Of a DNA stretch of 64,000 bases, positions 17,984 through 38,860 are shown piece after piece (within the stretch, counting starts at the first letter, position 1; each line of letters starts with the position of its first letter). The stretch covers positions 3,576,069 to 3,640,068 of the forward strand of contig JADJOI010000003.1 of assembly GCA_016713875.1 (NCBI GenBank), read 5' to 3'. The notes below the pieces were generated by a model. The model searched no databases. It was not told the DNA's origin and saw only the letters and a program-made list of their open reading frames with translations. This DNA is from Flavobacteriales bacterium (GTDB lineage: Bacteria; Bacteroidota; Bacteroidia; Flavobacteriales_F; PHOS-HE28). A program made the translations under genes and the position numbers.

Positions 17984-18011
17984 AGCCGCCTGTCTGCGCA
18001 GGCCGTGCCGC

Positions 18012-19509: not shown

Positions 19510-19512
19510 GGC

Positions 19513-20933: not shown

Positions 20934-20981
20934 TGAGGCTTAATGCCATGCTAAGCGGGCTTTAAGGAGGCGGTTCCAGCT

Positions 20982-22113: not shown

Positions 22114-22128
22114 ACCGATCAGCCGGCT

Positions 22129-22928
22129 AAAGGAGATGACCGTGCCCGACTTCGAGTCAGTGCCCGGATCCCCGCACGCGCACTATTACGGAGAGGTGGG
22201 CTCCTATCCTTCGACATCAAGCATGTGCGCTACGGGCCCATGAGCGCCGTGCCTTCCATCGTGGGCGACATCCGCGAAGGGGTCAACGGCTCGGTCATTA
22301 AGCTCGAGTTCGACATCGAGGAGCACTACACCATGACCAAGCGGATGTACGGCGCTACGTTGATTCCGTTGAGCCTCATCTTCATCCTGCTGAGCGTGCT
22401 GATGCACTGGGGAACCGAGTACCAATGGCAGAGCCTGACTGCCTCTGGATCCTTCCTGGCGATGTCCCTGCTCATCATCTGGTTCGCCAAGGTCTCCTCA
22501 AGAGCATCCGCAAGAAGGAGCTCGGAGAGTACATAGAGGCCGTGGATGGGCATGTCATGGTGAACACGAGCCTGGGCGACCACAGGCACTCCCTGGAGCT
22601 GAGCCCCCGCCTGAGGCGCTACATCGATCCGGTGCCGGTCGGTCGGTGCCTGCACCATGCGCTGACGTTGGCAGAACGCTTCATGTGGGGCGAGAGCCAG
22701 CAGCAAGCATGGAGACGGCCTGGAAGAACCGGTCGATCACCACTGCGAATTGAGGATGTGAATAAGAGAGCAGGCCGTGCCTTTCCTCACTTCTTCACCG
22801 CCGCTGCCGCAGACTCTAGACTTTGTCCCGCGCTTAGGGTTCAGACCATAGCGAAGAAGGGCCACCGAAGAGGACTGAGCTGGGCTTGGGCAGGGCTATC
22901 GGCTCTTAAACCCACGGTGGGCGGTTAA
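22129..22928 (+). pseudogene. hypothetical membrane protein, frameshifted
   Basis: Three consecutive frames give one continuous-looking protein (MTVPDFESVPG... / ...DIKHVRYGPMSAVPSIVGDIREG...LIIWFAK / GLLKSIRKKELGEYIEAVDGH...). No family assigned. Confidence 0.3.
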
Positions 22929-22934
22929 TCGATC

Positions 22935-24113
22935 GTAGGTCGGGGGTCTTGATCCCCACCATTGAGAAGGAGTGCTTGCGGCCTCTCGCTCACATGCGGG
23001 AACCGCACCATGGACCTGTTGGAGCCCTTCGAGGAACTGGAAGACCCGCGCATCGACCGCACCAAGCGGTATCCGCTGAGCTCGCTCTTGCTGCTGATCC
23101 TCTCGGCGGTGCTCAGCGATTGCCAGGGAGCCAGCGAGATCGCCCACTTCGGCCTGGCCAAGCTCGATTGGTTCAAACGCCACGGCCACTTCACGGATGA
23201 CAAGGTGCCATCGCACGACACGATCGGCGACCTGCTCCGGCGGCTCGATCCGGTGGCCTTCGCCGCCTGCTTCGCCCGGTGGACGGCCCGCGTGTGCCAG
23301 ATCACCGAAGGAGAGCTGGTGGCCAGTGATGGCAAGCGCTTGCGCGGCAGCTACGATCGGCTCGATGGCAAGGAGGCCATCCACATGATCAGCGCATGGA
23401 GCCACCAGAACCAGCTTGTGCTGGGGCAACTGCAAAGTGGATGGCAAGACCAACGAGATCACGGCCATCCCCGCATTGCTTGAAATGCTGGAGTTGAAGG
23501 GTGGTGAGCATCGATGCCATGGGTTGCCAGAAAAAGATCGCAGCACTGATCCAGGAGCGCAAGGCCGACTATCTCCTGGGCTTGAAGGAGAACCAGCCCG
23601 AACTGCTCGAAGAGGTCGCCCTTGCCTTCGTCCATCACAAGACCCACAGCCACGACCAGCAGGACACCAAAGGCCATGGTCGCGTGGAAACACGCGGATG
23701 CGCGAAGTGATCGACGATCCTACGTGCTCTCCGATGCGGCGCATTGGACCGGCTTGCGTTCACTGGTGCGCGTCCAGGCCATCACCCACCGGGTGATCGA
23801 GAGCAAGACCACCAGCCAGACCCGCTACTACCTCTCCAGCCTCAAGACCGATGCACGCAGGTTCAACGCCCTGATACGCGCCCATTGGGGCATCGAGAAC
23901 TCGCTGCACTGGGTCTTGGACGTCACCTTCCAGGAAGACGCCTCCCGCGTGCGGAAGGACCACGCCGATCGCAATCTGGCCACCATCCGCCGATGGGCCC
24001 TCAACCTCTGTAAACTGGACCGGACACCCAAGCTCACCATGAACCTCAAGCGCAAGCAGGCCTCCTACTCAGATGCCTTCCGTGAGCAACTCCTAAGGAT
24101 TAAGACCCGATAG
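22935..24113 (+). mobile_element. ISAs1-family insertion sequence (degraded)
   Basis: Imperfect terminal inverted repeats tcgggggtcttgatcccc (left) and ggattaagacccga (right). The internal transposase matches ISAs1/H-repeat-associated proteins. Confidence 0.7.
23010..24113 (+). pseudogene. ISAs1-family transposase, at least 3 frameshifts
   Basis: MDLLEPFEELEDPRIDRTKRYPLSSLLLLILSAVL...DGKRLRGSYD; then DGKTNEITAIPALLEMLELKG, MGCQKKIAALIQERKADYLLGLKENQPEL, and THRVIESKTTSQTRYYLSSL...HWGIENSLHWVLDVTFQED in different frames. Confidence 0.75.
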
Positions 24114-24129
24114 CCCTGACAGAGCACCA

Positions 24130-24716
24130 TCACACTATCGGATGCCATCGTCGCGGCGGACATTGTGCAGCAAGCTTTCCGCGCGATCGGGCAAGAGGAT
24201 AGCGCCTACACGTACTTGCATCGCATGGTATGGCTGCAGGACAGCCTGACCAACGTGAACAACTTGTACAAGGTGCAAGGCATGACCTTCGAGCAGGAAC
24301 TGAAGGACCACGAGGATGCCAAATTGAAAGCCGAAGCCTCCGCCGCCCGCTCCCGCAACATCCAGTTCGGCATCATCGCCCTCATCGTTCTCACACTGGG
24401 CATCTTCCTGCTGGTGTTCAGCCGTACGGCGGTCGTTGGCGCCAAGGCCATCAAGAACCTCTCGCCGATCGCGCTGCTGCTCTTCTTCGAGTTCATCAAT
24501 CTGCTGCTGCATCCGTTCTTGGACCGCATCACCAACCACTCACCGATCCTGATGCTGTTGTGCATGGCCGCGATCGCAGGGGCTGCTGATCCCGCTGCAC
24601 CACCGCATGGAGAAGCTCATCACCAATATGCTTGTATCGAAGAACAACCGCGTACGATTGGAGGCGGCGAGAAGGACGATCGAGGAGTTGGAGTCCAACA
24701 CCGACAGCGCCCAATG
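24130..24716 (+). pseudogene. TPR/transmembrane paralog A: 5'-truncated by the IS, 1 frameshift
   Basis: Reading frame is open from the IS right end. Contains the conserved TM and C-terminal module (RSRNIQFGIIALIV...FFEFINLLLHPFLDRITNHSPILMLLCMAAIAG). An extra G near 24585 shifts the ...LLIPLHHRMEKLITNMLVSKNNRVRLEAARRTIEELESNTDSAQ* tail. Confidence 0.65.
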
Positions 24717-24720
24717 AGGA

Positions 24721-26146
24721 AGTACATCACGATCGCCCGGCCGGTCGTCTTTGTGTTAGCAAGCATGGTTCACCTCGTGCTATCTGCGCAGCAGTTCGTC
24801 AGTCAACCGCGGTTCGATTCCTTGCGAACGCGCTATGACTTGTCACGGCCGCCGCAAGAGCGTTATTGGATCACCAGCAACCATCGGTGGGCATGTTGGA
24901 ACAGAGGGCTCAAGCAGGAGGCCCGACAGTCTGCCAAAGAGGAGCTTGAACTTGCCGAGCAACTGCAGGTGGACACTTTGCTCGCCAACGCCTACGACGA
25001 CCTGAGCGGAAGCTTTATCGGTTCATCGGAAAGCGCGCTGCAATTGAAGTACTCGCAGAAGGCGCTGGAACATGCGAATGCTTCGGGAAGCCATGACTAT
25101 ATCGGCACCGTGCAGAAGGGCTTTGCCTCCATCTATAAGCCGTTGGGAGACTTTCCCCTGGCCAGACTACTTGAGGAAGGCGTTGACCAACCTGCGCCGA
25201 CCATCGCAGATCAATCGGGCGTGTTGTCATATGAGCGATTGTTTCAGGTTGATGGGGCAAGCCGATTCCGCGCTGTACTGGGCGCAGCGGTCGAACATTG
25301 TGACCAACCCGGCTGAGGATACGTACGGCTACGCGCTCGTATTATGTGCCTTGGGCGGCCTATGCGGCCAAGGGCGAACGCGACTTGGCCGAGGTGCATT
25401 TCAAGCGTTGCATCGAGGTGGCTGAGTCGTTCAAGGTGATGGTTCCGCTCTATGCAGCGCTGGTTGCCCGTGGGCGCATGAAGCTGGAGGCGGAGGACGT
25501 GGAGGGAGCGATCGCCGATGGCCGACGGGGCTTGAAGGTGAGCCAGGACGGGGACGATCTGGTCGGTATGATCGAGTCAACAGAGCTGCTGCGTGATGCC
25601 TTCAAACGCATTGGTCGCCTCGATAGCGCATTCCACTTCTTCACATTTAAAGCGGCCTATGACGACAGTTTGAGGAACGTGACCAACCTGAACAAGCTAC
25701 AGAACATGGCCTTCGAGCAGGAGCTGAAGGATCGAGAGGATGCGAAGCTGAAGGCCGAAGCCGCAGAGGCCCGCTCCCGCAACATCCAGTTCGGCATCAT
25801 CGCCCTCATCGTGATCACGCTGGGCATCTTCCTGCTGGTGTTCAGCCGAACGGCGGTGGGGGCGCCAAGGCCATCAAGAACCCTCTCGCTCATCGCGCTG
25901 CTGCTCTTCTTCGAGTTCATCAATCTGCTGCTGCATCCGTTCTTGGACCGCATCACCAACCACTCGCCGATCCTCATGCTGCTTTGCATGGCCGCCATAG
26001 CAGGGTTGTTGATCCCACTGCACCACCGCATGGAGAAGCTCATCACCAACATGCTTGTATCGAAGAACAACCGCGTACGATTGGAAGCGGCGCGGCGGAC
26101 GCATCGAAGAGTTGGAAGCAAGGCCAACAGACACGGGCCCGAGATG
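24721..26146 (+). pseudogene. TPR/transmembrane paralog B, at least 3 frameshifts
   Basis: Signal peptide MRKYITIARPVVFVLASMVHLVLSAQ. The TPR-like body is spread over 3 frames. Conserved TM/C-terminal module at 25700-26100. The tail RRT(I)EELE is shifted. Confidence 0.6.
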
Positions 26147-26185
26147 ATGGGAATGATGCGTAACACACCTCAAGGACGATCGATC

Positions 26186-27917
26186 ATGAAGGTGGTCCGG
26201 CTGCTCTGTGCGGTTGTCATCATGAGCACCATCGGAGATCTGCGTGCACAGCCTTTCGATACGATTCAAACGCGGTTCAGCACGCTGCCGTTGGAAGAAC
26301 TGATCGTACGGGAAAAAAGCGACCACCGACGCGCGTGAGAAGGTCGCGCTGCTCTCCAGGCTCGTAATGAAGTACCTGTACCTCAACAAGCAGGACGAAT
26401 GCACGAGCACCTCGATCCGCACGCTTGAGGTGGCCGAACCCACCAGGAACGACACGCTTATCGGCAGGGCGCATCTGGCCATCGGGTCGGCATTCACCAT
26501 CGCCAATGACGTGAACGGGGCATTGAAGCATTACAACTTATCGCTCGACCACTACACAAGTGCTGGTGACAGTATTTGGATGGGCGCGGTGTGCAAGGAG
26601 CTCGCCGTGCTCTATCAACGCGTGGGCGACAATGATGGCTCCATGCGCTACATGCGCAAAGCGCTGGCTTTGGGCATGCCCCCCGGGATCCGTTCGCGAG
26701 GGCTGTCAACAATAGCCCGGGTCTTCATGGACCGTGGCGAGCTCGATTCCGCGCTGTACTACACCAAGCAAGTGGAAATGGTCGGTTCACCAGGCGTGGA
26801 CCCATGGACCTACACGTATTCGAACGGTGCGCTTGCCGCAGTGTATGCGGCCCGGAAAGAGAACCATCTGGCCGAGCTGCATTTCAAGCGCACGATCGCC
26901 GCTGCTGATTCGTTCCAACTACCGCTTCCCCTCGTTCAGTTCGCTTCGGAGTATGCTTCCTTGCTCATGGAACAGGGCCGCACAGCGGAGGCGCAATCCA
27001 TCGCGCAATTGGCTTTCCGAGCCGCAGAAGGGGTGAGCAACCCAGGGATGGCGCAGAGAGCTGCCGAAGCCCTGGCCGATGCATACCATGCGAACGGCAG
27101 GACGGATAGCGCGTTCCATTACGCGAAGCTCTGCATCTCATTTCGCGACAGCGTTATCTCCACGCAGAACCGCAGCCAGCTCCAGAGCCAGCTCTTCGCG
27201 CAGCAGCTCAAGGACATGGAGGATGCCAAATTGCGCGCGGAGGAAGTCGCGACCCGCTCCCGCAACATCCAGTTCGGCATCATCGCCCTCATCGTTATCA
27301 CGCTGGGCATCTTCCTGCTGGTGTTCAGCCGCACGGCGGTGGTCGGCGCCAAGGCGATCAAGAACCTTTCGCTCATCGCGCTGCTGCTCTTCTTTGAGTT
27401 CATCAATCTACTGGTGCATCCTGTACTGGGTGAACTCACGCACCACTCGCCGTTGCTGATGCTGCTGTGCATGGCCGCCATCGCCGCGTTGCTCATCCCG
27501 CTGCACCACCGCATGGAGAAGCTCATCACCAACATGCTCGTGAGCAAGAACAACCGGGTGCGGTTGGAGGCGGCGCGGCGGACGATCGAGGAGTTGGAGG
27601 GGGCGGGGAAGGGGAGGCCGATGCGGCGGGTTGAACACGGACTGGTCGTGCTCCACTGTCGAGCAATCAGGGATCACAGTTCCCGTTCGAACTGCGGAGC
27701 GAAATGCTCCTCTCAACGGGCTGCGATCGCATCCAACCGTTCGAGAATGCGGCGCAGCAGCACCACGGTCTCCTCACTGGCCGCTGAGGAAGGACTGGTT
27801 TGTTCAGGTTCGCGCCCATGCTTCAAGGCTTCGCGCTGTGCCAGGATCCGGTCGCGGAACTCGTGCGCGTCGATGATGCCGATCAACCGCATGTCGTGCG
27901 CTTGTCCCTGGCTCTGA
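26186..27917 (+). pseudogene. TPR/transmembrane paralog C, frameshift near 26320 and unresolved 3' end
   Basis: Signal peptide MKVVRLLCAVVIMSTIGDLRAQ in one frame; MKYLYLNKQDE...TPR body...RSRNIQFGIIALIVITLGIFLLVF...LHHRMEKLITNMLVSKNNRVRLEAARRTIEELE in the next. The ORF then overruns into the opposite-strand gene, which is likely spurious. Confidence 0.6.
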
Positions 27918-28252
27918 CCGGCCGTCTCGAACTTCAGGATGCTCAGGTTGAAGTGCTTGAGCAGAGGACCCTCCACGAAAGTCACATCCTGGATGTTCTC
28001 CAACGGGATCGTCTTCTCGATCTGGAACAGGATGCCCTTGCGGTAGCGCAGCAGCTTCGGCCCCAACTCGCATTCCAACTTATCGAAGTAATGGCGGGCC
28101 CACCATTGACCCACACCAAGCACCCAGATCACGGCCAGCGGAATGCACACGACCGTTGCAGCAAGGAATAGGGCGACCTGAAGCACCAGGTACGGTCGTA
28201 TGAGCGGGTTGAAGCGCGCGCGTAGCGGTTCGGGCGGGGTAACGTCGGTCAT
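27713..28252 (-). CDS. bacterial PH domain (bPH_2/YdbS-like) membrane protein
   Basis: Two TM helices then GILFQIEKTIPLENIQDVTFVEGPLLKHFNLSILKFETAG. Only the last 179 aa of the 341-aa track ORF are credible. Confidence 0.65.
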   Translation of the reverse strand: MTDVTPPEPLRARFNPLIRPYLVLQVALFLAATVVCIPLAVIWVLGVGQWWARHYFDKLECELGPKLLRYRKGILFQIEKTIPLENIQDVTFVEGPLLKHFNLSILKFETAGQSQGQAHDMRLIGIIDAHEFRDRILAQREALKHGREPEQTSPSSAASEETVVLLRRILERLDAIAAR

Positions 28253-28339
28253 GCGCCTTTTCGTGTTTCTGTGGTGGCCAATGCCGAATGTACCGGTTCC
28301 CACCAGTCGGGTCGCTTGTTGTCCGCTAGCCTTGCACTG

Positions 28340-28440
28340 AAGAGGATCGTTGAAAGCGGCGAGAAGGACGATCGAGGAGTTGGAGTCCACCTCCGCCACG
28401 GCTTCTGCGGATGAAAGGGCGGGAAAGGGTGAGGCGCCGT
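28340..28440 (+). repeat. orphan 3' end of the TPR/TM paralog family (…AARRTIEELESTSATASADERAGKGEAP*)
   Basis: Shares aagaaggacgatcgaggagttggag with the 3' ends at 24670, 26095 and 27580. No gene body upstream. Confidence 0.6.
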
Positions 28441-28479
28441 AGATCCGGTCAGTGGTACTATGCCCGTGCCGTTGGTGGT

Positions 28480-30308
28480 TCAGCGACAGCTCGAGGATCG
28501 ATCCGCCCTCAGCGGGTTCGTGAGGCTGCCTGCACCAGATGCGTCTTGAAGCAGCAGGATCGCATGCGCCGATCCCGGTTCGTCCGTGTCGATGGGATCT
28601 GCTTCGGAAACGTTGTACCACGTCGAGTGGACCGTCGAAGCACTTCCGGGAAGGACACCAGCGGCCATCCGATCGCGTGCGCGCTGGATGGTTTCCTCGC
28701 GCCATGCGCCTGCCGGGTGCCACGGTGTGATCGTGCAAGCGGCGATCCCATCGTGCTTCATGGCGAAAGGCAATGCGCGTTCACCGGTCGGTTCAAACGA
28801 TGGTTCGCTATCAAGCACGATGTCAGGAACGACACCCTCCAGTTGCACACTGGTCCCCGATGGTCGGAAGAAGAGGCCCACGGTGATCTTGGCGGAACCA
28901 GTGGAGGTCACTGCGCCATCAGCATCAGCGATCGGCGCGAGGGGCACCATGTTCTGGATGGTGCCTTTGCCGTAGGTCCGAGGTCCACCCAGCACCACGG
29001 CGCGCTTGTGGTCCTGCAAGGCGGCCGCGAAGAACTCAGAGGCCGATGCGCTGTGCTCGTTCACGAGCACGACGAGCGGTCCTCGATAGCGGGCCCGCTC
29101 CGGGGTCGTCGAAAGCACGCGCACGGTGCCGTCACGGGGCAAGGCGCTGCGCGACGGGTCCCGCATCGAGAAAGAGGCCGAGGATGTGGATGGTCTCGCT
29201 CATGCTGCCGCCCTGGTTGTCGCGCAGGTCGATGGCGAGGCCGCCGATCCCTGCGTACAGGAGGGTGTCGAGCAGTTCCGCGACGTCCTGGGAACAGCGC
29301 GGCGCGCTCCCGCCGGACAGGTCGGTATAGAAGCGCGGCAAGGTGATCACACCGATGGGTGGACCGGCACCACGCACCACACATGCCCGCGCCTGGCCCG
29401 CCGCAGGGTGGATGAGCGCGCGTTCCAGGACCACGGTCCGTTGTTCGCCGTCCGCCTGGCGAAGGATCAGCTCCAGCGTGCTTCCGGCCGGGCCACGAAG
29501 CAGGTCCACCGTTGCGTCGATGGAAAGACCAGGCACCGGCACGGGTGCGGCGTTCAGCTCGCGCACCGTCAGCAGCTCATCGCCCATGGCCAATGCACCG
29601 CCCAACGCCGCGGGGCCGCCGGGTTCCATCGACCCGATGCGGATGCGGCCATCGGTGCTCGACAGCGTGACACCGATGCCGACGAAGCTCTGCGTCATCG
29701 CATGGTCGAAGCCCGTACGCTCTTCCGCCGACAGGTAGGTGCTTTGTGCGTCATGCACGTTCGCCAGCGTGCCAAGGAAAAGGTCCATGCGTTCTTCACG
29801 TCCGCGCTCGATCCGGGCGCGCAGGTCGTTCTGTGCGCGGGCCCGCACAAGGGCCCTGGCCTCATCTGCGGAACCGCCCAGGGCAGCACGGACCTCCGAG
29901 CTGCGTTCGGCGAGTCGGCAATGCCAGCGTCGGTCCGGTTCTGCGTGCGCAGTGGGCGTGCCGTCCCCATCGACCAGTGCCAGGGCGCAACAGACCGGCG
30001 TACATCAGGCTGTCGCAGCGATGCACGAACGATGGCACACCGTGCGCCAGTTGGTCATCGATGTGCAAGCGATCGCTGGCCAGAATTTCGCGCTCTGGCG
30101 CTGAGAGATAGAGGGTGTCCGGGTCAAGGGTGCGCAGGTAGCTGTCGAAGACGTCCGCTGAGAACCGGTCGTCGATGGCTCGTGGCGCGAAGTGCCGCTC
30201 CCGCAGGATCGTCATCAGCTCGGCGATGCGCGCGCTGTCGGCGTCCAGTTGCGCGGGGCAGAAAGTGCAGCAGGACAGGCAAAGAGCGAATCCCGTGATG
30301 CGTAGCAT
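28480..30308 (-). pseudogene. S41 family C-terminal processing peptidase, at least 2 frameshifts
   Basis: N-terminus ELMTILRERHFAPRAIDDRFSADVFDSYLRTLDPDTLYL. PDZ region; GVITLPRFY...DLRDNQGGS; LVVLVNEHSASASEFFAAALQDHKRAVVLGGPRTYGKGTIQ. Spread over three frames. Confidence 0.75.
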
Positions 30309-30419
30309 GATCCGAAGGTATCGGCAGTGGCATGCGTGGGATCCAAGGAACTGTTAATGGCCGGTTGCTGTTAGTGGTAACGGAGCGGGTTGCTGCATGA
30401 AGGCGAAAGTCAGCGCGCA

Positions 30420-30490
30420 TCTCTCCAAAGGCTGGAGTCGGTAAGAAGGACGATCGAGGAGTTGGAAGGTGGGCCGCGCAAGGACTAACC
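30420..30490 (+). repeat. second orphan 3' end of the TPR/TM paralog family (…RRTIEELEGGPRKD*)
   Basis: Same 24-bp core gtaagaaggacgatcgaggagttgga. Isolated. Confidence 0.55.
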
Positions 30491-30543
30491 CCATATCGCG
30501 TCCCAAAGCCCCTCGATGATATCGGGGTCTTGAGCCTCCGTTG

Positions 30544-31416
30544 TCAACGGACCATGACGCGCTCAACGAACCATTCACCTCGACCCGAACTGAACTGCAA
30601 GACATACGCGCCTGGGCGATCGAACGTAATGACCTGTTCGCCACGGACGGTCTGCGCGCTCAATTGCCGTCCGGTCGCGTCGAAGACGGTCATGGAGCCT
30701 TCAACCCCAGTAATGAAGACCGGCTCTCCGCGGGAGGCCAGGGAAGGTCTGATCCACGATCCGGCCTCTTCACGCTCTCCGATCCCGACCCCCAGCGTGC
30801 ATTGCGCGACCAATGGGTTCTGCCAGGTGATATCCGTATCCTCATAACACCGAAGACCCGCGAAGACCTCGCCATCGCAGACGCCATAGAGCCAGGCGAA
30901 CGGCGCGATCAGATTTCCGAGCCGCTCCGTGACCGTACCTCCGAAACCGAAGCTGGACCACTGCCTGGACTCCACGCTCACTTCCAGGCTGCGCAGCGAA
31001 AGTCCATCCACCCAGATCAGGCTCGTATCCAGCACGGTCCAATCGAGTGTATCCTGCTGACCGATCTGCACCACCGGAGTGGACCACACATCACCGATGG
31101 CCGCGTTCCATCGAAAGACCAGATGATGCTGGCCTGTGCTTGATCCGAAGTAGAACAGGGAGTCCTGCGACTCCGAGAGGAACTGGGCAAGTTGATGACA
31201 GCCGAACCAACCCTCGTTGATCTGGAGCTTCTTGCATATTCGGCCCTCGATGAGCGTGTCGCCCGTCACCTCGATCACCATCAGGGCGGTATCTGGACCG
31301 CCCCAATGAGCCTGCTTGTAGGTCCATTTCGCACCGGTCGGAGCGAACGTCGTCTGCGCATGCATCGAGGTCGCGACAAGAGCGGCGCTGAGCGTGAGGA
31401 TCTGCCCGTTGGTCAT
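30544..31416 (-). CDS. T9SS-sorted secreted protein (paralog of 12078-13526)
   Basis: Signal peptide MTNGQILTLSAALVATSMHAQ. FAPTGAKWTY and CDGE..LRCY motifs shared with 12078-13526. C-terminal ...GAYVLQFSSGRGEWFVERVMVR. Confidence 0.6.
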   Translation of the reverse strand: MTNGQILTLSAALVATSMHAQTTFAPTGAKWTYKQAHWGGPDTALMVIEVTGDTLIEGRICKKLQINEGWFGCHQLAQFLSESQDSLFYFGSSTGQHHLVFRWNAAIGDVWSTPVVQIGQQDTLDWTVLDTSLIWVDGLSLRSLEVSVESRQWSSFGFGGTVTERLGNLIAPFAWLYGVCDGEVFAGLRCYEDTDITWQNPLVAQCTLGVGIGEREEAGSWIRPSLASRGEPVFITGVEGSMTVFDATGRQLSAQTVRGEQVITFDRPGAYVLQFSSGRGEWFVERVMVR

Positions 31417-31494
31417 GGCATGGTGAAGATAGACCAACTGGACGCGTTTCCAGGGCGAAGTGCTGCCCGGGATCAGGCCGGACCCCCCCACCCC

Positions 31495-31620
31495 CTCCAA
31501 CGCCACCTTCGCCCCATGCACAGCCTGCCCCGCGCATTTGGCGGGGTTCTTCACGACCTGTCCCGCCTTAGCGGGATCCAGCACGCTGATCCGCAAGGTG
31601 CCTGACACATCGCGGACGTT
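31495..31620 (-). repeat. mfd 3'-end-like fragment F5 (orphan, hairpin-containing)
   Basis: Minus-strand translation ...GTLRISVLDPAKAGQVVKNPAKCAGQAVHGAKVALEGVGG is homologous to the Mfd C-terminus (KFKVYEKAGTLRVSVQD...). Contains the stems ccccgcgcatttggcgggg and tcccgcc..gcggga. Confidence 0.7.
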
Positions 31621-31630
31621 CGGGAGCCTT

Positions 31631-32002
31631 TAGAGCAGATGCAGCGTGAGTTCGTTCTTGAGCTTCTTGAAGTGCTTGTCTTCCGTGACGAGCGGTACTC
31701 CGGAGCCGGATGGCGGTCGCCGCGATCAGCGCATCGGCGAGTTTCATTCGATAACGAGCACGGAAGTCCATGGCTGCTGACTTGATCCCGTCGTCGAGGT
31801 CCACGATCTTGATGAATGCCAGGTCGGCGGTCACTTTCGCACGCTCATGGGCCGTGTAGCCATGAAAGCCGAGTATTTCGATCTCGGTGACGAAGGAGAC
31901 GTGGATGATCGTGTCTTCGAGCAGCGGCGTTGTGCGCGCATCGCCGTCCCAGTGGTGGATCAATACGTTGGTGTCGACCAGCAACGACTTAGCGGTCATC
32001 AC
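31631..32002 (-). pseudogene. vapC: PIN-domain toxin VapC, 1 frameshift near 31690
   Basis: MMTAKSLLVDTNVLIHH...ADALIAATAIRL, then a frame switch to PLVTEDKHFKKLKNELTLHLL*. Confidence 0.65.
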
Positions 32003-32213
32003 GCATGGTCTTCAAATACTCCTTCATACGCTCCGCTATGCCGGGGATCATCCCGGAGGAGCGCTTGGCATCGTAGCCTTTCTGCTTCTGCCGTTTGGAT
32101 GTTGTTCTCGGGGTCGTCTTTCGTGCGTATACGGCCTGCGGGTCGCTCACCACGGTAAGCGCCTTCTCCGAAGTCTGCTTGGGTTTCTTTGGTCGCTTTG
32201 AGCTGGTGGCCAT
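31989..32213 (-). CDS. vapB: VapB-type antitoxin (small basic protein overlapping vapC start)
   Basis: 74 aa. Ends MIPGIAERMKEYLKTMRDDR with a 14-bp overlap of the vapC start codon region. Confidence 0.45.
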   Translation of the reverse strand: MATSSKRPKKPKQTSEKALTVVSDPQAVYARKTTPRTTSKRQKQKGYDAKRSSGMIPGIAERMKEYLKTMRDDR

Positions 32214-32261
32214 GGATCGAAGATAGGTCAGGCCACCTCCTTCACCCCCACCACACTCTCC

Positions 32262-32395
32262 ATTGCCGCCTTCGCCCCTTCGATGTTCTTCACGACCTGT
32301 CCCGCCTCGGCGGGATCCTGCACGCTGATCAGCATCGTTCCCGCCTTCTCGTACACCTTGAATCGGCATGGTTTGCCCTCGGCAAGTTCTCAAGT
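32262..32395 (-). repeat. mfd 3'-end-like fragment F4
   Basis: Encodes ...RFKVYEKAGTMLISVQDPAEAGQVVKNIEGAKAAMESVV...* ; ~85% nt identity to F3 over the core. Confidence 0.7.
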
Positions 32396-32413
32396 GTGAA
32401 TGACCGGCAGGCC

Positions 32414-32977
32414 TCACCGGCGGATCTCGAATCCAGTCTCCGTCGATACAGTGTCAACCATTGGTGCAAGTCGGATCCGATCCTTACGGGTAAAGACCGT
32501 GTCAACTCCCCATTCACCCAACTCACCTGTATTCATCGAAACAACGAGTGTGTCGTTAGTCTCCACGAGGAACGCGCTGCGTTCATAGACGCCGCCATGG
32601 TCGTCGTTCTCGATGAGGGAGAACCAATGGGGCTGCTTCGAGCATCCATCGAAGAGGGTGAGCGTCAGATACCGCACCGCATGGTCGCACTCGGGAGAGC
32701 TGTTCAGCACGAGGAGTCCGATGCGAGATTCTCTTATGATGACCTTGCCTATGACCCACGCAGAATCACTTTCCGTCATTCTCCTGTCGTGGAGGGCATG
32801 GAACCCTTCCGCATCCAGGCGGATCCAACTCGGGTCGATCGCCTTGTCAACGTAATCCAGATCGAAGTGGCGTTCCGATATCTCGGGAACGAGCAAGAGC
32901 ACTTCGCAAAGGTCCTGTGGGGATGAGGGTAGGCGAGAAGCACAAGGTTGACCGAGCACGAGCGGCACACAGGTCAA
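32414..32977 (-). CDS. hypothetical protein (cargo between F3 and F4)
   Basis: Open frame with non-biased composition (…SAWVIGKVIIRESRIGLLVLNSSPECDHAVRYLTLTLFDG…). No family recognised. Start uncertain. Confidence 0.35.
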   Translation of the reverse strand: MTCVPLVLGQPCASRLPSSPQDLCEVLLLVPEISERHFDLDYVDKAIDPSWIRLDAEGFHALHDRRMTESDSAWVIGKVIIRESRIGLLVLNSSPECDHAVRYLTLTLFDGCSKQPHWFSLIENDDHGGVYERSAFLVETNDTLVVSMNTGELGEWGVDTVFTRKDRIRLAPMVDTVSTETGFEIRR

Positions 32978-33079
32978 TTAGGACAGGTAGGGCTTCATGC
33001 CAACTGGTTCAAGTATTGGTTGAACGATCTACGGCCCAAGTTCTTATGCTGCAACGTTCACCTCAACAACCGATTCCAT

Positions 33080-33270
33080 CGCCGCCTTCGCCCCTTCGAT
33101 GTTCTTCACGACCTGTCCCGCCTCGGCGGGATCCTGCACACTGATCCGCGACGTCCCCGCATTCTCGTACACCTTGAACCGTCGTGGTTGCGCCTGCGCG
33201 GCGCGCAGCAGCGCGTTGAAGCCAATGGCCTCAAAGAAGCCATACTTCCGGTCGGCAAAGGCTTCAGGCC
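33080..33270 (-). repeat. mfd 3'-end-like fragment F3 (longest)
   Basis: Encodes AFADRKYGFFEAIGFNALLRAARAQPRRFKVYENAGTSRISVQDPAEAGQVVKNIEGAKAAMESVVEVNVAA*. Aligns with Mfd ...GDGFNAVLRAVQAQPGKFKVYEKAGTLRVSVQDTKTLHEAKEVLGAVLVVPA*. Confidence 0.75.
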
Positions 33271-33563
33271 GCCTTGGCTGTCGCCAGTGGGATCTCCGCC
33301 AACTCCTTGCCTTTTCCTTTGAGCTCTTCTTCGATATCGAAATCGTCCTGTAACCCCAGCCAGAACTTGGCCGAATTACCGAAGTACTTGGAGAGGCGCA
33401 GGGCGGTATCCGCTGTGACGCGACGCTCGCCCTTGATGATCTGAGATACGCGCGTTTGCGGGATACTGATGTCCTTGGCCAGGCGGTAGGCCGTGATGCC
33501 CATGGGTACGAGGAACTCCTCTTCGAGCACAGTGCCGGGGTGGATGTTCGGGAGCTTCTTCAT
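33264..33563 (-). CDS. higA: HigA family antitoxin (XRE HTH)
   Basis: MKKLPNIHPGTVLEEEFLVPMGITAYRLAKDISIPQTRVSQIIKGERRVTADTALRLSKYFGNSAKFWLGLQ. Confidence 0.75.
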   Translation of the reverse strand: MKKLPNIHPGTVLEEEFLVPMGITAYRLAKDISIPQTRVSQIIKGERRVTADTALRLSKYFGNSAKFWLGLQDDFDIEEELKGKGKELAEIPLATAKAA

Positions 33564-33574
33564 GGGTGCTGATC

Positions 33575-33865
33575 TTAATGGTAGTCGATGATCTCCACTT
33601 CGTAGGCGTTGCCGCTTTGCCACTTGAAAATGATGCGCCACTGGTCGTTGATGCGCACGCTATAGAAGTCCTTCAGGCGGCCAGCCAGTTTCTCCAAGCG
33701 GTTGGCGGGTGGGACGCGCAGATCGGCGATGTCTTGGGCGTTGTTGATCATCCGGAGCTTTCTTCTGGCCGTTTCCTGGATCGTCGAAGGCAGTTTCCGC
33801 TGTGGATCACCGTTCCAGATCCCTTCTGTCACCTTCGATCCGAACGACCTGATCATGTCCGGCAA
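33575..33865 (-). CDS. higB: HigB-like toxin (RelE/ParE superfamily)
   Basis: ...RLKDFYSVRINDQWRIIFKWQSGNAYEVEIIDYH is a HigB C-terminal signature. Sits upstream of higA as usual for higBA. Confidence 0.7.
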   Translation of the reverse strand: MPDMIRSFGSKVTEGIWNGDPQRKLPSTIQETARRKLRMINNAQDIADLRVPPANRLEKLAGRLKDFYSVRINDQWRIIFKWQSGNAYEVEIIDYH

Positions 33866-33904
33866 ATATACTATCGCGTGGCGTCACTAGCAACTGCCAC
33901 CCCA

Positions 33905-33950
33905 CCACCCCACCACTCCCTCCATCGCCGCCTTCGCCGCGTGGATGATC
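33905..33950 (-). repeat. mfd 3'-end-like fragment F2 (short; tail only)
   Basis: Encodes ...IIHAAKAAMEGVVG..., matching the AAKAAMESVVG tails of F3 and F4. Confidence 0.5.
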
Positions 33951-33968
33951 TGACCGAAGTAAAGTGGC

Positions 33969-35005
33969 CTAGGTCTTCTTTCGTGTTGCGGACCTCCCCA
34001 TGGTAAGCGCTTTCCTTGCGCTCAACGGTGTTACGACCTTCTTGCCAGTACGAGCCTCCAATTCCAAGCGCGCCACCTTGGCCACGTTCCCACCTTGTCG
34101 CGCCACTTCTTTGTTGTCCTCGAAGGTCTCGGGCTCGGTGGCTTGTGAAATGTCCTTCGCGGATGCCTCGGCAAGCATGTTCAGGATCAGTTCCGTGTTG
34201 GTCATATTGTCGCGGAGGTTCTCCTTCTTCAGGCCCTTGAGCACCTTGTACTCCTTCGTGCTGTTCCCGCTCCACGCCTTGGTGATTATGTCCGTGAGCG
34301 TCGCGAAGTGCATGCCTTCCTTCATCCCGCGTTTCCTCCATTCATCGGTCAGCTCCTTGCGGATCTCGATGCTCTGTAGGGAGGTTCAAAGCACATCGTT
34401 CCGGCGGCGATGTATTGAAGTAGAGTATCAGTGATGCTTGCTCCCGTTCGACCATACGGCGTTGCTCCTAGGCCGGATACTTCGTTCCAGTATCCTTGCC
34501 TCGGAGCGCCTTGTCTGGTCATACGATAGCTGTGCACGCCATCCGTTCGATGTGCTTTGAACCTCCCTGGCCGCTGGTTGATCCAACTCTCCGAGTAGCC
34601 CAGCCGCAGGTATTGTTCAAGCGCACGGTCGATGGTGATCTCCGGATCCGCCATTTCATCCATCCGCTCCGATGCCACTTGTGCCAGCCATAGTTTGAAC
34701 GGCTCGGCCTTGGGTGAAGGGATGGATTGGATCAGCCGGAAGAGCTGCTCGGTGTCGGCCACATCGGTGAGGCGGAGCTTGCCGTCGTCGGCGGGCAATT
34801 TCAACTGTCCGATTTTATCGGACAGTTGGCTGCCTTCCTTCACTAGCTTGGTCTTCAGGTCGTTCCAGTACTTGCGAGGGCGCTCGTTACCGGTGAGGGC
34901 CGCTATCACATCGATGATGGAGAAGAACCACTTCTCCTGCTCCCCGTCCCACACGGTGCGAACCTGCTTCTCCTCGAAGACCTTGATGGCGTTCTTGTCG
35001 GTCAT
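33969..35005 (-). pseudogene. DinD-like / Bro-N domain DNA-damage-inducible protein, at least 2 frameshifts
   Basis: N-terminal part KVFEEKQVRTVWDGEQEKWFFSIIDVIAALTGNERPRKYWNDLKTKL (Bro-N/DinD-like). C-terminal part HFATLTDIITKAWSGNSTKEYKVLKGLKKENLRDNMTNTELILNMLAEA aligns with E. coli DinD residues ~150-200 but lies in a separate ORF. Confidence 0.55.
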
Positions 35006-35059
35006 GATAGGAGCAAGGTAGGGACTGCAAACGCTGCGGCGTTAAGCAGCGACGGTAAT

Positions 35060-35235
35060 GCCCACAACGGATTCCAACGCGTCCTTCGCCGCGTGCACAG
35101 CCTGCCCCGCGCATTTGGCGGGGTTCTTCACATCCTGCACACTGATCCTTAAGGTTCCCGCCTTCTCGTACACCTTGAAGCGTCGCGGTTGCGTCCCGCG
35201 ATTCGCCATCTCGCCTTGCTCGATCGCAAATCACT
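35060..35235 (-). repeat. mfd 3'-end-like fragment F1 (78 bp downstream of the real mfd stop)
   Basis: Encodes ...MANRGTQPRRFKVYEKAGTLRISVQDVKNPAKCAGQAVHAAKDALESVVGITVAA*. Confidence 0.75.
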
Positions 35236-35311
35236 GGATTTCGCCCTCGGTCGCTTTTGCGCCTGCGGTCCATGCCTTCGGCATTGCTCAACTTGCACCG
35301 GGCGCACTGCG

Positions 35312-38300: not shown

Positions 38301-38860
38301 AGCTCCTCGTGACGCTTCACGGTGAGCGTGTTGCTCATCATCTCCTCCTGGCCCATCACGAGCGGCACCAGTGCTTCGGGGTAGGTGACGATGATGAGCT
38401 TGTTGGTGATCGGTGAATGGGAGTTGGTGAATGGGGAATGCGCATTCGCACCATTCGCCATTCGCCATTCGATATTCACCCTCATCAACGCTTCCAACAC
38501 TTCCGTCCTTGTGACGCGTTCACCGTCGTGGTGGCCTTCCGGATCGTACGGCGATCGCGAGGGTGCGGGATAGAAGAGCATGTCTTCATCCTTCTTCGCA
38601 TGACGGCCATCCTTGTCCTTGCCACGTAGCGCTTCCAGGTCGTTGATGAAGTAGGCCGCTTCTTCCTTGTCGGTGAGCACGAACACATGCACGCCGCCGC
38701 GCTGCTCGATGACCGACGCGGCGATCAGCGCTTGCGCCGAACCGATGGTGCCCGCGATCTGCACGCGCGCGGAATCTGGTTGCAGGCCTTCGGCGATGCG
38801 CGCGACGCGTGGGTCGTTGCGGTAGAGGGTGAGTAGGTCGGGGAGGGAGGTCAAAGGCAT
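35312..38860 (-). CDS. mfd: transcription-repair coupling factor
   Basis: 1182 aa, intact. UvrB-interaction region, DEAD/DEAH helicase motifs (GDVGFGKTEVA, LIIDEEQKFG), TRCF domain. Confidence 0.95.
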   Translation of the reverse strand: MPLTSLPDLLTLYRNDPRVARIAEGLQPDSARVQIAGTIGSAQALIAASVIEQRGGVHVFVLTDKEEAAYFINDLEALRGKDKDGRHAKKDEDMLFYPAPSRSPYDPEGHHDGERVTRTEVLEALMRVNIEWRMANGANAHSPFTNSHSPITNKLIIVTYPEALVPLVMGQEEMMSNTLTVKRHEELPIDTLQEWLDETGFSRVEFVYEPGQFSIRGGIVDVFSYGSDKPYRIELYGDTVESVRRFDPQDQLTVEFLAEAVIVPDLQDEDTARQQNFFAQLPEDAVIWLRDLQAIGDAATKQLKLLGEAYERLSEKEKHPTPNELLATDGELIKGTLGFRKVFWGRSIHHRDAEDTEKAVTAAAQRRDGNATQDSKAQVVVDFQQRPQPTFAKEFKVLSGDLHNKQNAGYTNLIACNSAKQSERLYTIFNDMEHEVAFTPLVLDLHEGFIDPELKLALYTDHQIFERYHRYRLKEGFRKNSQALTLKELTQLKPGDLVVHIDHGVGVFSGLETIDAGGSMQEAIRLKYRDNDILYVGIHSLHRVSKYSGEEGGNAPPVSKLGSPAWKNLKEKTKAKVKALAFDLIKLYAQRKSKPGFAFQPDNYLQHELEASFIYEDTPDQLKATQDVKRDMEKGVPMDRLVCGDVGFGKTEVAIRAAFKAVCDGKQAAVLVPTTILALQHWKSFSARMKGLPVRVDYINRFRSSAQQTQILKDLKEGKIDILIGTHRLVSKDVVYKDLGLLIIDEEQKFGVNVKDKLKTLRATVDTLTLTATPIPRTLQFSLMGARDLSIISTPPPNRYPVATMLQPYDEVTIRGAIEYELSRGGQVYFLHDKVKNIEFIADMIRKLVPGARVGVGHGQLEGHKLEEVMLDFIEGNTDVLVCTTIVENGLDIPNANTIIVNEAQNFGLSDLHQLRGRVGRSNKKAYCYLLAPSPHLLPDLSRKRLQAIEQFSDLGSGIHIAMKDLDIRGAGDLLGAEQSGFINDIGFETYHKILEEAVRELKDQHFKDLFDDAQEGSHALARGSRRDQSDDCIIETDLTMLIPNSYVSETAERLALYRRLDDIKDEAELQKFTTEVTDRFGPIPQLVNELLEGIRLRWLGQRMGLAKMVLKKGTLIGTFIADQKHPFFEGDGFNAVLRAVQAQPGKFKVYEKAGTLRVSVQDTKTLHEAKEVLGAVLVVPA

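What the first reader, a model, noticed from the sequence alone, without database searches (positions are those of the whole stretch)
24130..30490. Tandem TPR/transmembrane paralog family with a shared recombinogenic 3' terminus and two orphan 3' ends
Three tandem paralogs share an almost identical TM and C-terminal module (RSRNIQFGIIALIV(I/L)TLGIFLLVFSRTAV...FFEFINLL(L/V)HP...HHRMEKLITNMLVSKNNRVRLEAARRTIEELE) but have diverged TPR-like N-terminal bodies. They are A (5'-truncated by ISAs1), B and C.

The last ~25-30 bp of that module (aagaaggacgatcgaggagttgga) recurs twice more as isolated gene ends with different short tails, at 28340-28440 and 30420-30490. Each sits just upstream of an unrelated opposite-strand gene (S41 peptidase; T9SS protein).

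This looks like a cassette-like or C-terminal-switching locus in which the conserved 3' segment acts as a recombination site. It is organised much like the mfd-tail array nearby.
Basis: seen in the sequence. Interest (0 to 1): 0.65.

Follow-up and report, generated by a model that had tools for sequence, protein, structure and literature searches.

The report
Displaced gene-end relics beside a gene-capture hotspot
The two 'orphan' gene ends are real, but they are decaying leftovers of recombination events that pushed old gene ends downstream when new genes were inserted next to a tandem membrane-protein family. They are not parts of a working switching system.

Summary
Three tandem TPR/transmembrane paralogs are present: A (cut by an ISAs1-family element), B and C. 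They share a ~450-nt 3' module. Its last ~35-50 nt recur at 28350-28442 (O1) and 30432-30488 (O2).

The broken reading frames in the window are homopolymer assembly errors. Other assemblies of the same species carry intact B, C and S41 genes.

- A sister strain has a complete fourth paralog D exactly where O2 lies, so O2 is D's 3' end.
- A more distant relative has C followed directly by S41. The window differs by a 798-bp insertion carrying a PH-domain gene (bPH_2) whose named relatives are proteobacterial. That insertion pushed C's old end (O1) downstream.
- Orphans in three lineages carry amino-acid changes at positions that are invariant in functional genes, so they are decaying.
- Similar 3'-anchored orphans, with unrelated cargo genes, follow these arrays in other species.
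- mfd, which converges on the same island, has four or five displaced 3' ends of its own.

Best explanation: C-terminal displacement, as described for Rhs genes, anchored in conserved flanking genes of a gene-capture hotspot. No recombinase, attC-like site or alternative junction was found. The 'recombination site' idea is partly right; 'switching locus' is not supported.

The parts
22884..24125 (.). ISAs1-family insertion sequence that truncates paralog A. The transposase frame is broken.
   Evidence: 29-nt terminal inverted repeats at 22884-22912 and 24097-24125 (I2). Pfam DDE_Tnp_1_assoc at 22962-23483. DDE_Tnp_1 fragments are called at the same place in L082-L085.
24132..24717 (+). Paralog A: the 3' fragment only (end of the TPR body, the TM module, tail SNTDSAQ*).
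   Evidence: Aligns to residues 346-539 of a full-length family gene from L072. No 5' part of A occurs elsewhere in the window. Frames shown.
24714..26147 (+). Paralog B (signal peptide, TPR body, TM module, tail ARPTDTGPR*). The window copy carries assembly indels.
   Evidence: Intact 473-aa gene in L082, L084 and L085.
26186..27634 (+). Paralog C (tail GAGKGEADAAG*). Its module from about 27150 onward is of different descent from that of the sister strain L080.
   Evidence: Intact 482-aa gene in L082 and L084. The tail is confirmed by L081. Divergence profile against L080. The module is closest to the C orthologue of L078.
27713..28252 (-). bPH_2 (YdbS-like membrane PH-domain) gene. This is captured cargo, probably of proteobacterial origin.
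   Evidence: Pfam PF03703, E = 6e-12. Outside this species and a few unnamed metagenome contigs (86-91% identical), the nearest homologues are ~63-73% identical. The only named ones are proteobacterial: Chitinimonas, Pelomonas, Ramlibacter, Ahniella. It is absent from the syntenic locus L078.
28350..28442 (+). Orphan O1: the displaced 3' end of a family gene (last 12 codons of the module plus a 19-codon tail).
   Evidence: Its tail region is orthologous to the sequence after C's core in L078. The whole tail resembles that of an intact gene in L077. Orthologous copies in L096 and L090 are degenerate.
28480..30308 (-). S41 tail-specific protease gene (TSP_NTD, PDZ, Peptidase_S41). It is syntenic with C in L078.
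   Evidence: Intact 599-aa gene in L082 and L086. L078 has C followed by S41.
30432..30488 (+). Orphan O2: the 3' end of paralog D (last ~12 codons plus tail GGPRKD*).
   Evidence: L080 (97.6% identical flanks) has a full-length D. The alignment to the window resumes at 30433 and is identical to D's end from 30442.
30485..30530 (-). Relic of the 3' end of an unrelated membrane-protein gene 'X' (...DPDIIEGLWDAIWG*), convergent with O2.
   Evidence: The gene is intact in L090 (2-376) and ends ...EPGIIEGLWEAIWG*. L090 341-428 matches window 30520-30433 at 78%.
30544..31608 (-). It is the conserved neighbour of S41 and mfd in L078.
   Evidence: Synteny. No Pfam hit at E<=0.001. The C-terminal sorting-domain look is by eye only.
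31470..35230 (-). Array of four or five displaced mfd 3' ends, with PIN, HigB/HTH and Bro-N cargo genes between them. Copies: rep1 31470-31640, rep2 32200-32400, rep3 33030-33290, rep4 33908-33951, rep5 35040-35230.
   Evidence: Self-BLAST. The translations match the mfd C-terminus and are 5'-truncated at different codons. Cargo annotation comes from L082. L078 has the neighbouring gene directly next to mfd.
35312..38860 (-). mfd (TRCF), convergent with C. It is the other conserved flank of the variable island. Its present last ~80 nt differ from the end seen in L078 and the orphans.
   Evidence: Pfam calls for the L082 and L083 orthologue. C-terminus. The mfd 3' part is 92.3% identical to L080, against 97.6% in the left flank.

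Best explanation
The locus is the left border of a gene-capture hotspot (about 27.6-35.3 kb). The hotspot lies between two convergent conserved anchors: the last gene of a tandem TPR/3-TM family array (C, + strand) and mfd (- strand).

New DNA enters by recombination anchored in the conserved 3' part of a flanking gene.
- The crossover on that side is homologous. It gives the resident gene a new, foreign version of its 3' end.
- The other junction is made either by a single crossover with a circular intermediate that carries only a short core fragment, or by an illegitimate join.
- The resident's old 3' end is therefore not removed. It is shunted downstream behind the incoming cargo.
- Repeating this leaves a string of 5'-truncated, promoterless gene ends, with cargo genes between them.

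O1 is the earlier end of C, displaced when the bPH_2 gene arrived. O2 is what is left of paralog D after the segment 'C module-bPH_2-O1-S41' replaced D's body.

The orphans have no function of their own and are decaying.

Shown: what the orphans are, the structural polymorphism, the decay, and the parallel mfd array.

Inferred: the order of events and the molecular route (circular intermediate versus homology-facilitated illegitimate recombination).
For: 1. Sister strain L080 is collinear with window 16168-27601. It then carries a full paralog D and rejoins the window at 30433, so O2 is D's end.
2. Window and L080 are nearly identical up to ~27150, which is the start of C's conserved module. 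From there to 27600 they differ by ~10%, and beyond that they are unrelated. This is what a homologous crossover inside the module would leave.
3. The window's C module is closest to the C orthologue of L078 (91%). It is only 88% identical to L080's C module.
4. L078 has C -> S41(-) -> next gene -> mfd, with no bPH_2 and no O2. Its sequence after the core aligns to window 28417 onward. The window therefore has a 798-bp insertion (27619-28416) made of a new tail, bPH_2 and the O1 core.
5. The only named relatives of bPH_2 are proteobacterial, at ~63-69% identity.
6. The unit bPH_2 + orphan is conserved in L096 and L090. What lies beyond the orphan differs between them: S41 in the window, a Reg_prop gene in L090.
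7. Six functional gene ends all encode LEAARRTIEELE, with synonymous differences only. All five orphans carry 1-5 replacements, for example LKPARRTIEVLE and IKKRGMIEELE.
8. In other species, orphans are always 3'-anchored and 9-58 codons long. They lie 0.2-2.5 kb downstream of an array gene. Unrelated cargo sits between them in either orientation: ADH_zinc, DUF6090, lactonase, beta-lactamase.
9. mfd is an unrelated gene, seen once in the window, on the other flank. It has four or five displaced 3' ends truncated at different codons. Its present end differs from the one in L078, and its 3' part is 92% identical to L080 against 97.6% for the left flank.
10. This matches the published model of Rhs C-terminal displacement: core fragments of variable length plus tips plus intervening genes, downstream of the intact gene (PMC2935791). 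It also matches the model of sequential displacement by homology-facilitated illegitimate recombination (PMC5361080).
Against: - No circular intermediate or alternative junction has been seen.
- The order of events is inferred from only three or four related haplotypes. The reverse direction, with L080 derived, cannot be strictly excluded for the left breakpoint.
- For O2 alone, a plain deletion of D's body would also do.
- The 5' limits of the orphans cluster in the last 9-20 codons more tightly than random joins would predict.
- Six orphans in other species share the same K113|N114 junction next to a conserved hairpin element. This hints at something more specific, or at common descent.
- A short duplication made by an illegitimate join inside the anchor region is not something I could confirm from the papers read here.
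Confidence: 0.6

Rival explanations
1. Plain in-situ decay. O1 and O2 are the last remnants of two further tandem paralogs. Their bodies were removed by ordinary deletions or replaced by illegitimate insertions. No displacement, and no anchoring role for the conserved module, is involved.
For: - O2 is demonstrably the end of a paralog that is intact in L080.
- O1's whole tail resembles that of an intact gene in L077.
- Arrays in other species hold up to five or six members, so extra paralogs are plausible.
- The orphans decay like pseudogenes.
Against: - It does not explain the displaced mfd ends, because only one mfd is present in the window.
- It does not explain why the intact upstream gene carries a module and tail of different descent exactly where the structural difference begins.
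- It does not explain why all 10 or so relics are 3'-anchored and none is a 5' piece of the module.
- It does not explain why L078's C continues directly into O1's tail region.
Confidence: 0.2
2. Site-specific integration. A trans-acting recombinase (integron-like, or like SCC elements at rlmH) uses the 3' ends of the TPR genes and of mfd as attachment sites. The units between the cores are cassettes or eroded integrative elements, and the orphans are attR-type sites.
For: - Direct repeats bracket one- or two-gene units at two different genes in one window.
- The slot between O1 and O2 holds different genes in different lineages.
- A ~75-nt hairpin-containing element lies at the orphan junction in L058, L034 and L050. 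It is 95% identical to a copy between the mfd stop and the first mfd orphan in the window.
Against: - No integrase or recombinase was seen in the gene calls of L080, L082 and L083 around the locus, nor among 20 further ORFs of the window.
- The orphan boundaries vary from 9 to 58 codons.
- The mfd end and its nearest orphan (rep5) gave no BLASTN match to each other. By eye they are roughly 75% identical with no long identical stretch.
- No attC-like inverted repeats were found.
- The orphan cores mutate freely.
- The arrangement is the same in 12 contigs.
- Neither the core nor the hairpin element occurs in viral contigs.
Confidence: 0.1
3. Programmed C-terminal switching. The orphans are silent donor cassettes that recombine with A, B or C to change the protein's C-terminal tail.
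For: - The tails after ...EELE differ among paralogs and orphans.
- The architecture resembles the orphan CT modules of Rhs and CdiA loci.
Against: - The tails are 7-19 low-complexity residues, with no domain and no conservation.
- Donor homology is only ~35-50 nt, and it is decaying.
- Only two variants of C's end are on record, and they belong to different strains.
- There is one arrangement in 12 contigs.
- No toxin or immunity content is present.
Confidence: 0.03
4. The repeated segment is a cis-acting element in its own right (promoter, terminator, small RNA or protein-binding site) that overlaps the gene ends. It is kept in the intergenic copies because it serves the neighbouring genes.
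For: - O1 lies ~100-130 nt upstream of the bPH_2 start, and O2 lies ~125-180 nt upstream of the S41 start.
- Leu119 and Leu129 use TTG in a genome that otherwise prefers CTG/CTC.
Against: - No Rfam match.
- The fold is no better than shuffled sequence, z = -1.1.
- No promoter-like or terminator-like site falls on the orphans.
- Synonymous variation in the last 12 codons is like that in the rest of the module.
- The copies upstream of bPH_2 are degenerate in L090 and L096, while the nearer sequence GCCGAATGTACC is conserved.
Confidence: 0.03

Closest known systems
Rhs C-terminal displacement (Jackson et al. 2009, PMC2935791); orphan CT modules of Rhs/CdiA loci (PMC3150448, PMC3967940)
   Same: - An intact gene is followed by dissociated fragments. 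Each consists of a variable-length piece of the conserved core's 3' end plus a different tip, and intervening genes lie between them.
- New ends are acquired laterally and shunt the old end downstream.
- Recombination is limited to homologous core sequence.
   Different: - The gene is not an Rhs, YD-repeat or CdiA protein.
- The 'tips' are 7-19 residues with no toxin domain, and there is no immunity gene.
- The cargo consists of unrelated genes in either orientation.
- The same pattern also affects a housekeeping gene, mfd.
- The fragments decay rather than being conserved.
Sequential displacement of T6SS effector-immunity modules in Vibrio cholerae by homology-facilitated illegitimate recombination (Kirchberger et al. 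2017, PMC5361080; HFIR: de Vries & Wackernagel 2002 and Prudhomme et al. 2002, as cited there)
   Same: - A conserved upstream sequence acts as the homologous anchor.
- The other end joins illegitimately.
- Old 3' ends and downstream genes are pushed back, and arrays build up.
- No integrase is involved.
   Different: - There is no selective logic comparable to retaining immunity genes.
- Here the retained pieces are short, non-functional gene ends.
- The mechanism is inferred and was not tested.
Integrative elements that insert into the 3' end of a gene and restore it, such as SCC elements at rlmH/orfX or islands at tRNA and tmRNA genes, including tandem arrays (from my own knowledge, not checked here)
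   Same: Direct repeats of a gene's 3' end bracket inserted DNA, and serial insertions give several copies downstream of the intact gene.
   Different: - No recombinase was found.
- The repeat lengths are variable.
- The copies are homeologous rather than sharing an identical core.
- The units hold only one or two genes.
Integron cassette arrays
   Same: Single-gene units are separated by a recurring short sequence, and newer units displace older ones.
   Different: - No IntI integrase was found.
- No attC imperfect palindromes are present.
- Cargo orientation is mixed.
- The recurring sequence is the coding 3' end of a flanking gene.

Membership tests
Rhs/CdiA-type polymorphic toxin locus with orphan C-terminal modules | Large conserved delivery region (YD/RHS repeats or a filamentous haemagglutinin region) that ends in a demarcation motif (PxxxxDPxGL or VENN) | tested here: not met
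   Pfam and NCBIfam find only TPR repeats in B and C. The AF2 model is a TPR superhelix followed by three long helices. PDB sequence and fold searches return TPR proteins only.
Rhs/CdiA-type polymorphic toxin locus with orphan C-terminal modules | Variable C-terminal toxin domain followed by a cognate immunity gene | tested here: not met
   The tails after ...EELE are 7-19 residues. The downstream genes are bPH_2, an S41 protease and others of unrelated families, often on the opposite strand.
Rhs/CdiA-type polymorphic toxin locus with orphan C-terminal modules | Dissociated fragments (core 3' piece of variable length plus a different tip) downstream of the intact gene | tested here: met
   O1 and O2 in the window. 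Orphans of 9-58 codons occur in L002, L027, L034, L058, L059, L061, L063, L077 and L090.
Integron | IntI-type tyrosine recombinase next to the array | tested here: not met
   None appears in the gene calls of L080, L082 and L083 around the locus or in 20 further ORFs of the window. Not every ORF of the 64 kb was scanned.
Integron | attC sites: imperfect inverted repeats at each cassette boundary, with cassettes in one orientation | tested here: not met
   No inverted repeats lie at the unit boundaries. The core does not fold better than shuffled sequence. Cargo is found on both strands.
Site-specific integrative element with its att site in a gene's 3' end (SCC/rlmH-like, tRNA-island-like) | Recombinase gene within or next to the inserted unit | tested here: not met
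   The only mobile-element genes are ISAs1-family transposase fragments, a DDE_3 fragment, and IS3-type (HTH_Tnp_1/rve_3) fragments in L080.
Site-specific integrative element with its att site in a gene's 3' end (SCC/rlmH-like, tRNA-island-like) | Identical core sequence of fixed extent at both ends of each unit | tested here: inconclusive
   C's end and O1 share 20 identical bases (GGACGATCGAGGAGTTGGAG). However, these are the codons of an invariant peptide. Orphan extents vary. The mfd end and rep5 share no long identical stretch.
Diversity-generating retroelement (template repeat = orphan copy of a gene's 3' end) | Reverse transcriptase nearby, and a hypervariable target region that differs from the template at adenines | tested here: not met
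   No RT appears in the gene calls. The supposed variable region encodes LEAARRTIEELE without change in 65 distinct modules. The five differences between O1 and C's end do all fall on adenines of O1. However, A's end shares three of those adenines (the AGA AGG arginine codons), and the other two make the single Glu-to-Lys change in O1.
Homology-anchored displacement (a process, not a family): homologous crossover in a conserved flank plus retention of the resident 3' end | The upstream gene's 3' part is of different descent from its 5' part, starting inside the conserved segment | tested here: met
   Window against L080: at most 1 difference per 50 nt up to ~27150, then ~10% divergence through the module. 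Module affinities. The mfd 3' part is 92.3% identical against 97.6% for the left flank.
Homology-anchored displacement (a process, not a family): homologous crossover in a conserved flank plus retention of the resident 3' end | Direct observation of the intermediate (circle) or of the event itself | not testable with these tools
   This needs read-level data or experiments.

The most novel reading that the evidence does not exclude
A so far undescribed, trans-acting gene-capture system in these Flavobacteriales inserts small cassettes at the 3' ends of particular genes (the TPR/TM family and mfd), duplicating the gene end each time. On this reading, the ~75-nt hairpin element is its recombination site or a footprint of the agent. 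That element lies at the K113|N114 junction of TPR orphans in several species, and a 95% identical copy lies at the mfd junction in the window.
Probability: 0.07. Interest if true: 0.75.

Novelty: new variant of a known kind. Interest (0 to 1): 0.35.

Why it matters
Strings of displaced gene ends have so far been described mainly for polymorphic toxin genes (Rhs, CdiA, T6SS effectors). There they are usually read as an adaptive reservoir.

Here the same architecture appears at a non-toxin membrane-protein family and at a housekeeping gene. The leftovers are plainly decaying. This argues that displacement is a general by-product of recombination anchored in conserved genes at the borders of gene-capture hotspots.

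Such scars record the order of acquisitions, and here that includes a gene whose named relatives are proteobacterial. They can also mislead gene callers: in all assemblies seen, the bPH_2 gene is called 69 codons too long, running antisense across O1.

For the organism itself, the practical message is that this is ordinary genome flux and not a switch.

Tried and rejected
- Pseudogenisation of B, C and S41: rejected. The indels are assembly errors.
- A nucleotide-level element in the core: rejected. Synonymous entropy is like the rest of the module, Rfam finds nothing, and folding is unremarkable.
- DGR: rejected. The target is invariant and no RT is present.
- Phage or viral origin of the core or of the hairpin element: no exact match in viral contigs.
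- Metagenome scan for the hairpin element: one same-species contig (L098, 100% identical to window 33679-35883) and two chance hits. The element is therefore rare, and the lead could not be taken further.
- An nhmmer profile of the element found no further copies near O1, O2 or C's stop.
- Exact look-up of the 179-aa bPH_2 protein failed, because gene callers record a 248-aa version.
- Naming the TM/C-terminal module: Pfam, NCBIfam, a PDB profile search and Foldseek against the PDB recognise only the TPR part. The afdb50 library was not available.
- The sigma-70 promoter scan is uninformative for Bacteroidota.
- A full reconstruction of the order of events among window, L080, L078, L090 and L096 was attempted but is under-determined with the short contigs available.

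Full report
**What is in the window**

The window has 64% G+C. Its relatives are uncultured Flavobacteriales from wastewater and activated-sludge metagenomes.

Three paralogs lie head to tail on the + strand between 24.1 and 27.6 kb.
- A (24132-24717) is only a 3' fragment. It starts right after the right inverted repeat of an ISAs1-family element (IRs 22884-22912 and 24097-24125). No 5' part of A exists elsewhere in the window.
- B is 24714-26147 and C is 26186-27634. Both are full genes.
- Each full gene has a signal peptide, a TPR body of about 300 residues and a linker helix. A module with three hydrophobic helices follows, ending ...HHRMEKLITNMLVSKNNRVRLEAARRTIEELE, and then a short variable tail.
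- The modules are 84-89% identical in DNA over 405-455 nt. The bodies are far more diverged.

The reading frames of A, B, C and the S41 gene are broken in the window. A 99.2% identical Illumina contig (L081) differs at just these places by single bases, mostly in homopolymer runs. Seven or more other assemblies of the same species encode intact B (473 aa), C (482 aa) and S41 (599 aa). The frameshifts are therefore assembly errors.

**The orphans**

The last 35-50 nt of the module recur at 28350-28398 and 30432-30480. None would be expected by chance.
- O1 reads LKAARRTIEELESTSATASADERAGKGEAP* and has an in-frame stop four codons upstream.
- O2 reads LESVRRTIEELEGGPRKD*.
- Between O1 and O2 lies an S41 tail-specific protease gene, also on the minus strand.

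**The family**

Pfam and NCBIfam see only TPR repeats. A profile search of PDB sequences and a Foldseek search with an AlphaFold model (pLDDT 83 overall, 60-75 in the module) also return only TPR proteins. The TM/C-terminal module has no named family.

All named homologues come from Flavobacteriales MAGs. In the genome collection the 19-mer GGACGATCGAGGAGTTGGA occurs in about 40 Flavobacteriales loci. Nearly always it is at the end of a ~480-aa family gene, in tandem arrays with 1.4-1.5 kb spacing, on one or two contigs per genome. The remaining hits are unrelated genes that happen to encode TIEEL(E/D).

The core is thus the codons of a strongly conserved peptide, but it is restricted to this family and to gene ends. 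Across 65 distinct modules, synonymous variation in the last 12 codons is no lower than elsewhere in the module. The DNA of the core is therefore not specially constrained.

**What the orphans are**

A sister strain (L080, GCA_016720105.1) is collinear with window 16168-27601 at 97.6% identity.
- It then carries a complete fourth paralog D and rejoins the window at 30433. It is identical to D's end from 30442. O2 is therefore D's 3' end.
- The two strains are almost identical up to ~27150, exactly where C's conserved module begins. They differ by ~10% through the module and are unrelated after the core.
- The window's C module is closest to the C orthologue of another species, L078 (91%). It is only 88% identical to L080's C module.

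L078 has C -> S41(-) -> next gene -> mfd, without bPH_2 and without O2.
- Its sequence after the core aligns to window 28417 onward.
- The window therefore carries a 798-bp insertion (27619-28416) made of a new tail, bPH_2 and the O1 core.

Apart from the same species and a few unnamed contigs (86-91% identical), bPH_2 has only ~63-73% identical relatives. The named ones are all proteobacterial.

The unit 'bPH_2 + upstream orphan' is also present in L096 and L090-L093. There the orphan reads LKPARRTIEVLE and IKKRGMIEELE. What lies beyond the orphan differs: a Reg_prop gene in L090, S41 in the window.

Six functional gene ends from these genomes all encode LEAARRTIEELE and differ only synonymously. 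All five orphans carry 1-5 replacements. The orphans are therefore old, not translated as family C-termini, and decaying.

**The pattern is general**

In other species, 3'-anchored orphans of 9-58 codons lie 0.2-2.5 kb downstream of an array gene. Unrelated cargo sits between them: ADH_zinc, DUF6090, lactonase, beta-lactamase with a putative outer-membrane protein, and a divergent inverted family member. No 5'-only pieces of the module were seen in these loci. The loci were chosen by the core, however, so that point is weak.

In the window itself, next to O2 on the other strand, lies a relic of the 3' end of an unrelated gene that is intact in L090.

Most tellingly, mfd (35312-38860, minus strand) converges on C across the variable interval.
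- It is followed by four or five displaced copies of its own 3' end (31470-35230).
- These are truncated at different codons and mosaic among themselves. PIN, HigB/HTH and Bro-N genes lie between them.
- In L078 the neighbouring gene abuts mfd directly. The mfd end in L078 resembles the orphans rather than the window's present mfd end.
- The 3' part of mfd is 92.3% identical to L080, against 97.6% for the left flank.
- Only one mfd is present in the window, so its orphans cannot be dead paralogs.

**Mechanism**

The simplest account covers both arrays. The interval between C and mfd is a gene-capture hotspot, and incoming DNA recombines homologously with the conserved 3' part of a flanking gene.
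- The resident gene receives a new 3' end.
- The resident's old end is not deleted but is shunted behind the cargo.

Jackson et al. proposed this for Rhs genes: 'C-terminal displacement' through a single crossover with a circle that carries a core fragment, a tip and any intervening genes (PMC2935791). Kirchberger et al. proposed homology-facilitated illegitimate recombination for T6SS effector arrays (PMC5361080).

Under this account:
- O1 is C's earlier end, displaced when bPH_2 arrived.
- O2 is the remnant of D after a segment of L078-like descent (C module-bPH_2-O1-S41) replaced D's body.

Shown here: the identities of O1 and O2, the polymorphism, the breakpoints and the decay. Inferred: the direction and order of events and the molecular route.

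**What speaks against a dedicated system**

- No integrase, recombinase or reverse transcriptase appears in the gene calls around the locus in three assemblies, or in 20 further ORFs of the window. Those ORFs are efflux, metabolic and housekeeping genes.
- No attC-like inverted repeats are present.
- There is no Rfam match, no unusual fold, and no promoter- or terminator-like site on the orphans.
- Orphan boundaries vary.
- The arrangement is the same in 12 contigs from several samples, and only two versions of C's end are on record, each from a different strain.
- A switch would in any case exchange only 7-19 unconserved residues.

**An unresolved detail**

In L058, L034 and L050 a ~75-nt element with two small hairpins sits between a remnant of ...ITNMLVSK and the orphan's NNRVRL.... 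That is the same K113|N114 junction in each. Short forms of the element occur at that junction in L002, L023 and L090.

A 95% identical copy lies between the mfd stop codon and the first mfd orphan in the window, at 35224-35298. The element is rare, is absent from viral contigs and has no Rfam family.

It may be common descent plus a secondary transfer, or a hint of a more specific agent. I give the latter a low probability.

**Verdict**

The idea that the conserved 3' segment is where recombination happens is partly right, in an evolutionary sense. The idea of a cassette or switching locus is not supported.

This is a new variant of a known kind of scar, C-terminal displacement, here at non-toxin genes. 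It is of modest interest.

Noticed in passing
window 31470-35230 (minus strand), next to mfd 35312-38860: Four or five displaced, 5'-truncated copies of the mfd 3' end, for example ...FKVYEKAGTLRISVQD.... PIN, HigB/HTH and Bro-N genes lie between them. The present mfd end differs from the one in L078 and from the orphans.
   Followed up: partly
window 35224-35298 (minus strand); L058 2996-3072, L034 1691-1763, L050 2446-2521: A ~75-nt element with two small hairpins (...GAGCAATGCCGAAGGCATGG...GAAGTCCCGCTTTGCGGGAAAC). In the window it lies between the mfd stop and the first mfd orphan. In other species it lies at the K113|N114 junction of TPR orphans, and the L058 copy is 95% identical to the window copy. 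It has no Rfam family, is rare in metagenomes and is absent from viral contigs.
   Followed up: partly
window 24575, 25860, 26102, 26320, 27611-27615, 28456, 29135, 29985 (approximate): Single-base indels, mostly in homopolymer runs, break A, B, C and S41 in the window. They are absent from 99.2% identical Illumina contigs. The window appears to come from an imperfectly polished long-read assembly, and other apparent pseudogenes in it (for example the SLAC1/TDT gene at 20982-22113) should be read with that in mind.
   Followed up: partly
window 27713-28460 (minus strand): In the other assemblies of this species (L081-L089) the bPH_2 gene is called as 248 aa, running antisense across O1. Homologues are ~180 aa and align from the Met at 28252, so the extension is probably a gene-calling artefact.
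   Followed up: partly
window 27713-28252: The only named close relatives of the bPH_2 gene are Beta- and Gammaproteobacteria (63-69% identity). This suggests capture by horizontal transfer into a Flavobacteriales genome.
   Followed up: partly
window 30485-30530 (minus strand): A relic of the last ~15 codons of an unrelated membrane-protein gene (intact in L090 2-376), tail to tail with O2. Both genes of a former convergent pair are reduced to their ends.
   Followed up: partly
window 34378-34409 and 34537-34568: A 32-nt inverted repeat pair (84% complementary, 127 nt apart) inside the variable island, possibly a small MITE-like element. Window and L080 lose alignment between 34375 and 34572.
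   Followed up: no
L080 17368-19587 (between the mfd orphans and mfd): The sister strain carries ~2.2 kb absent from the window at this position. It includes IS3-type fragments (HTH_Tnp_1, rve_3) and further copies of the mfd-end repeat, which shows ongoing turnover on the mfd side.
   Followed up: no
window 22962-24113: The ISAs1-family transposase is split into several ORFs, including in Illumina contigs of the same species (L084, L085). The element that truncated A is probably itself defective.
   Followed up: no
L082 modules (= window A 24283-24692 and B 25707-26116): The A and B modules are each other's best match (92%), closer than to any module of another genome. This suggests gene conversion or recent duplication within the array.
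   Followed up: partly
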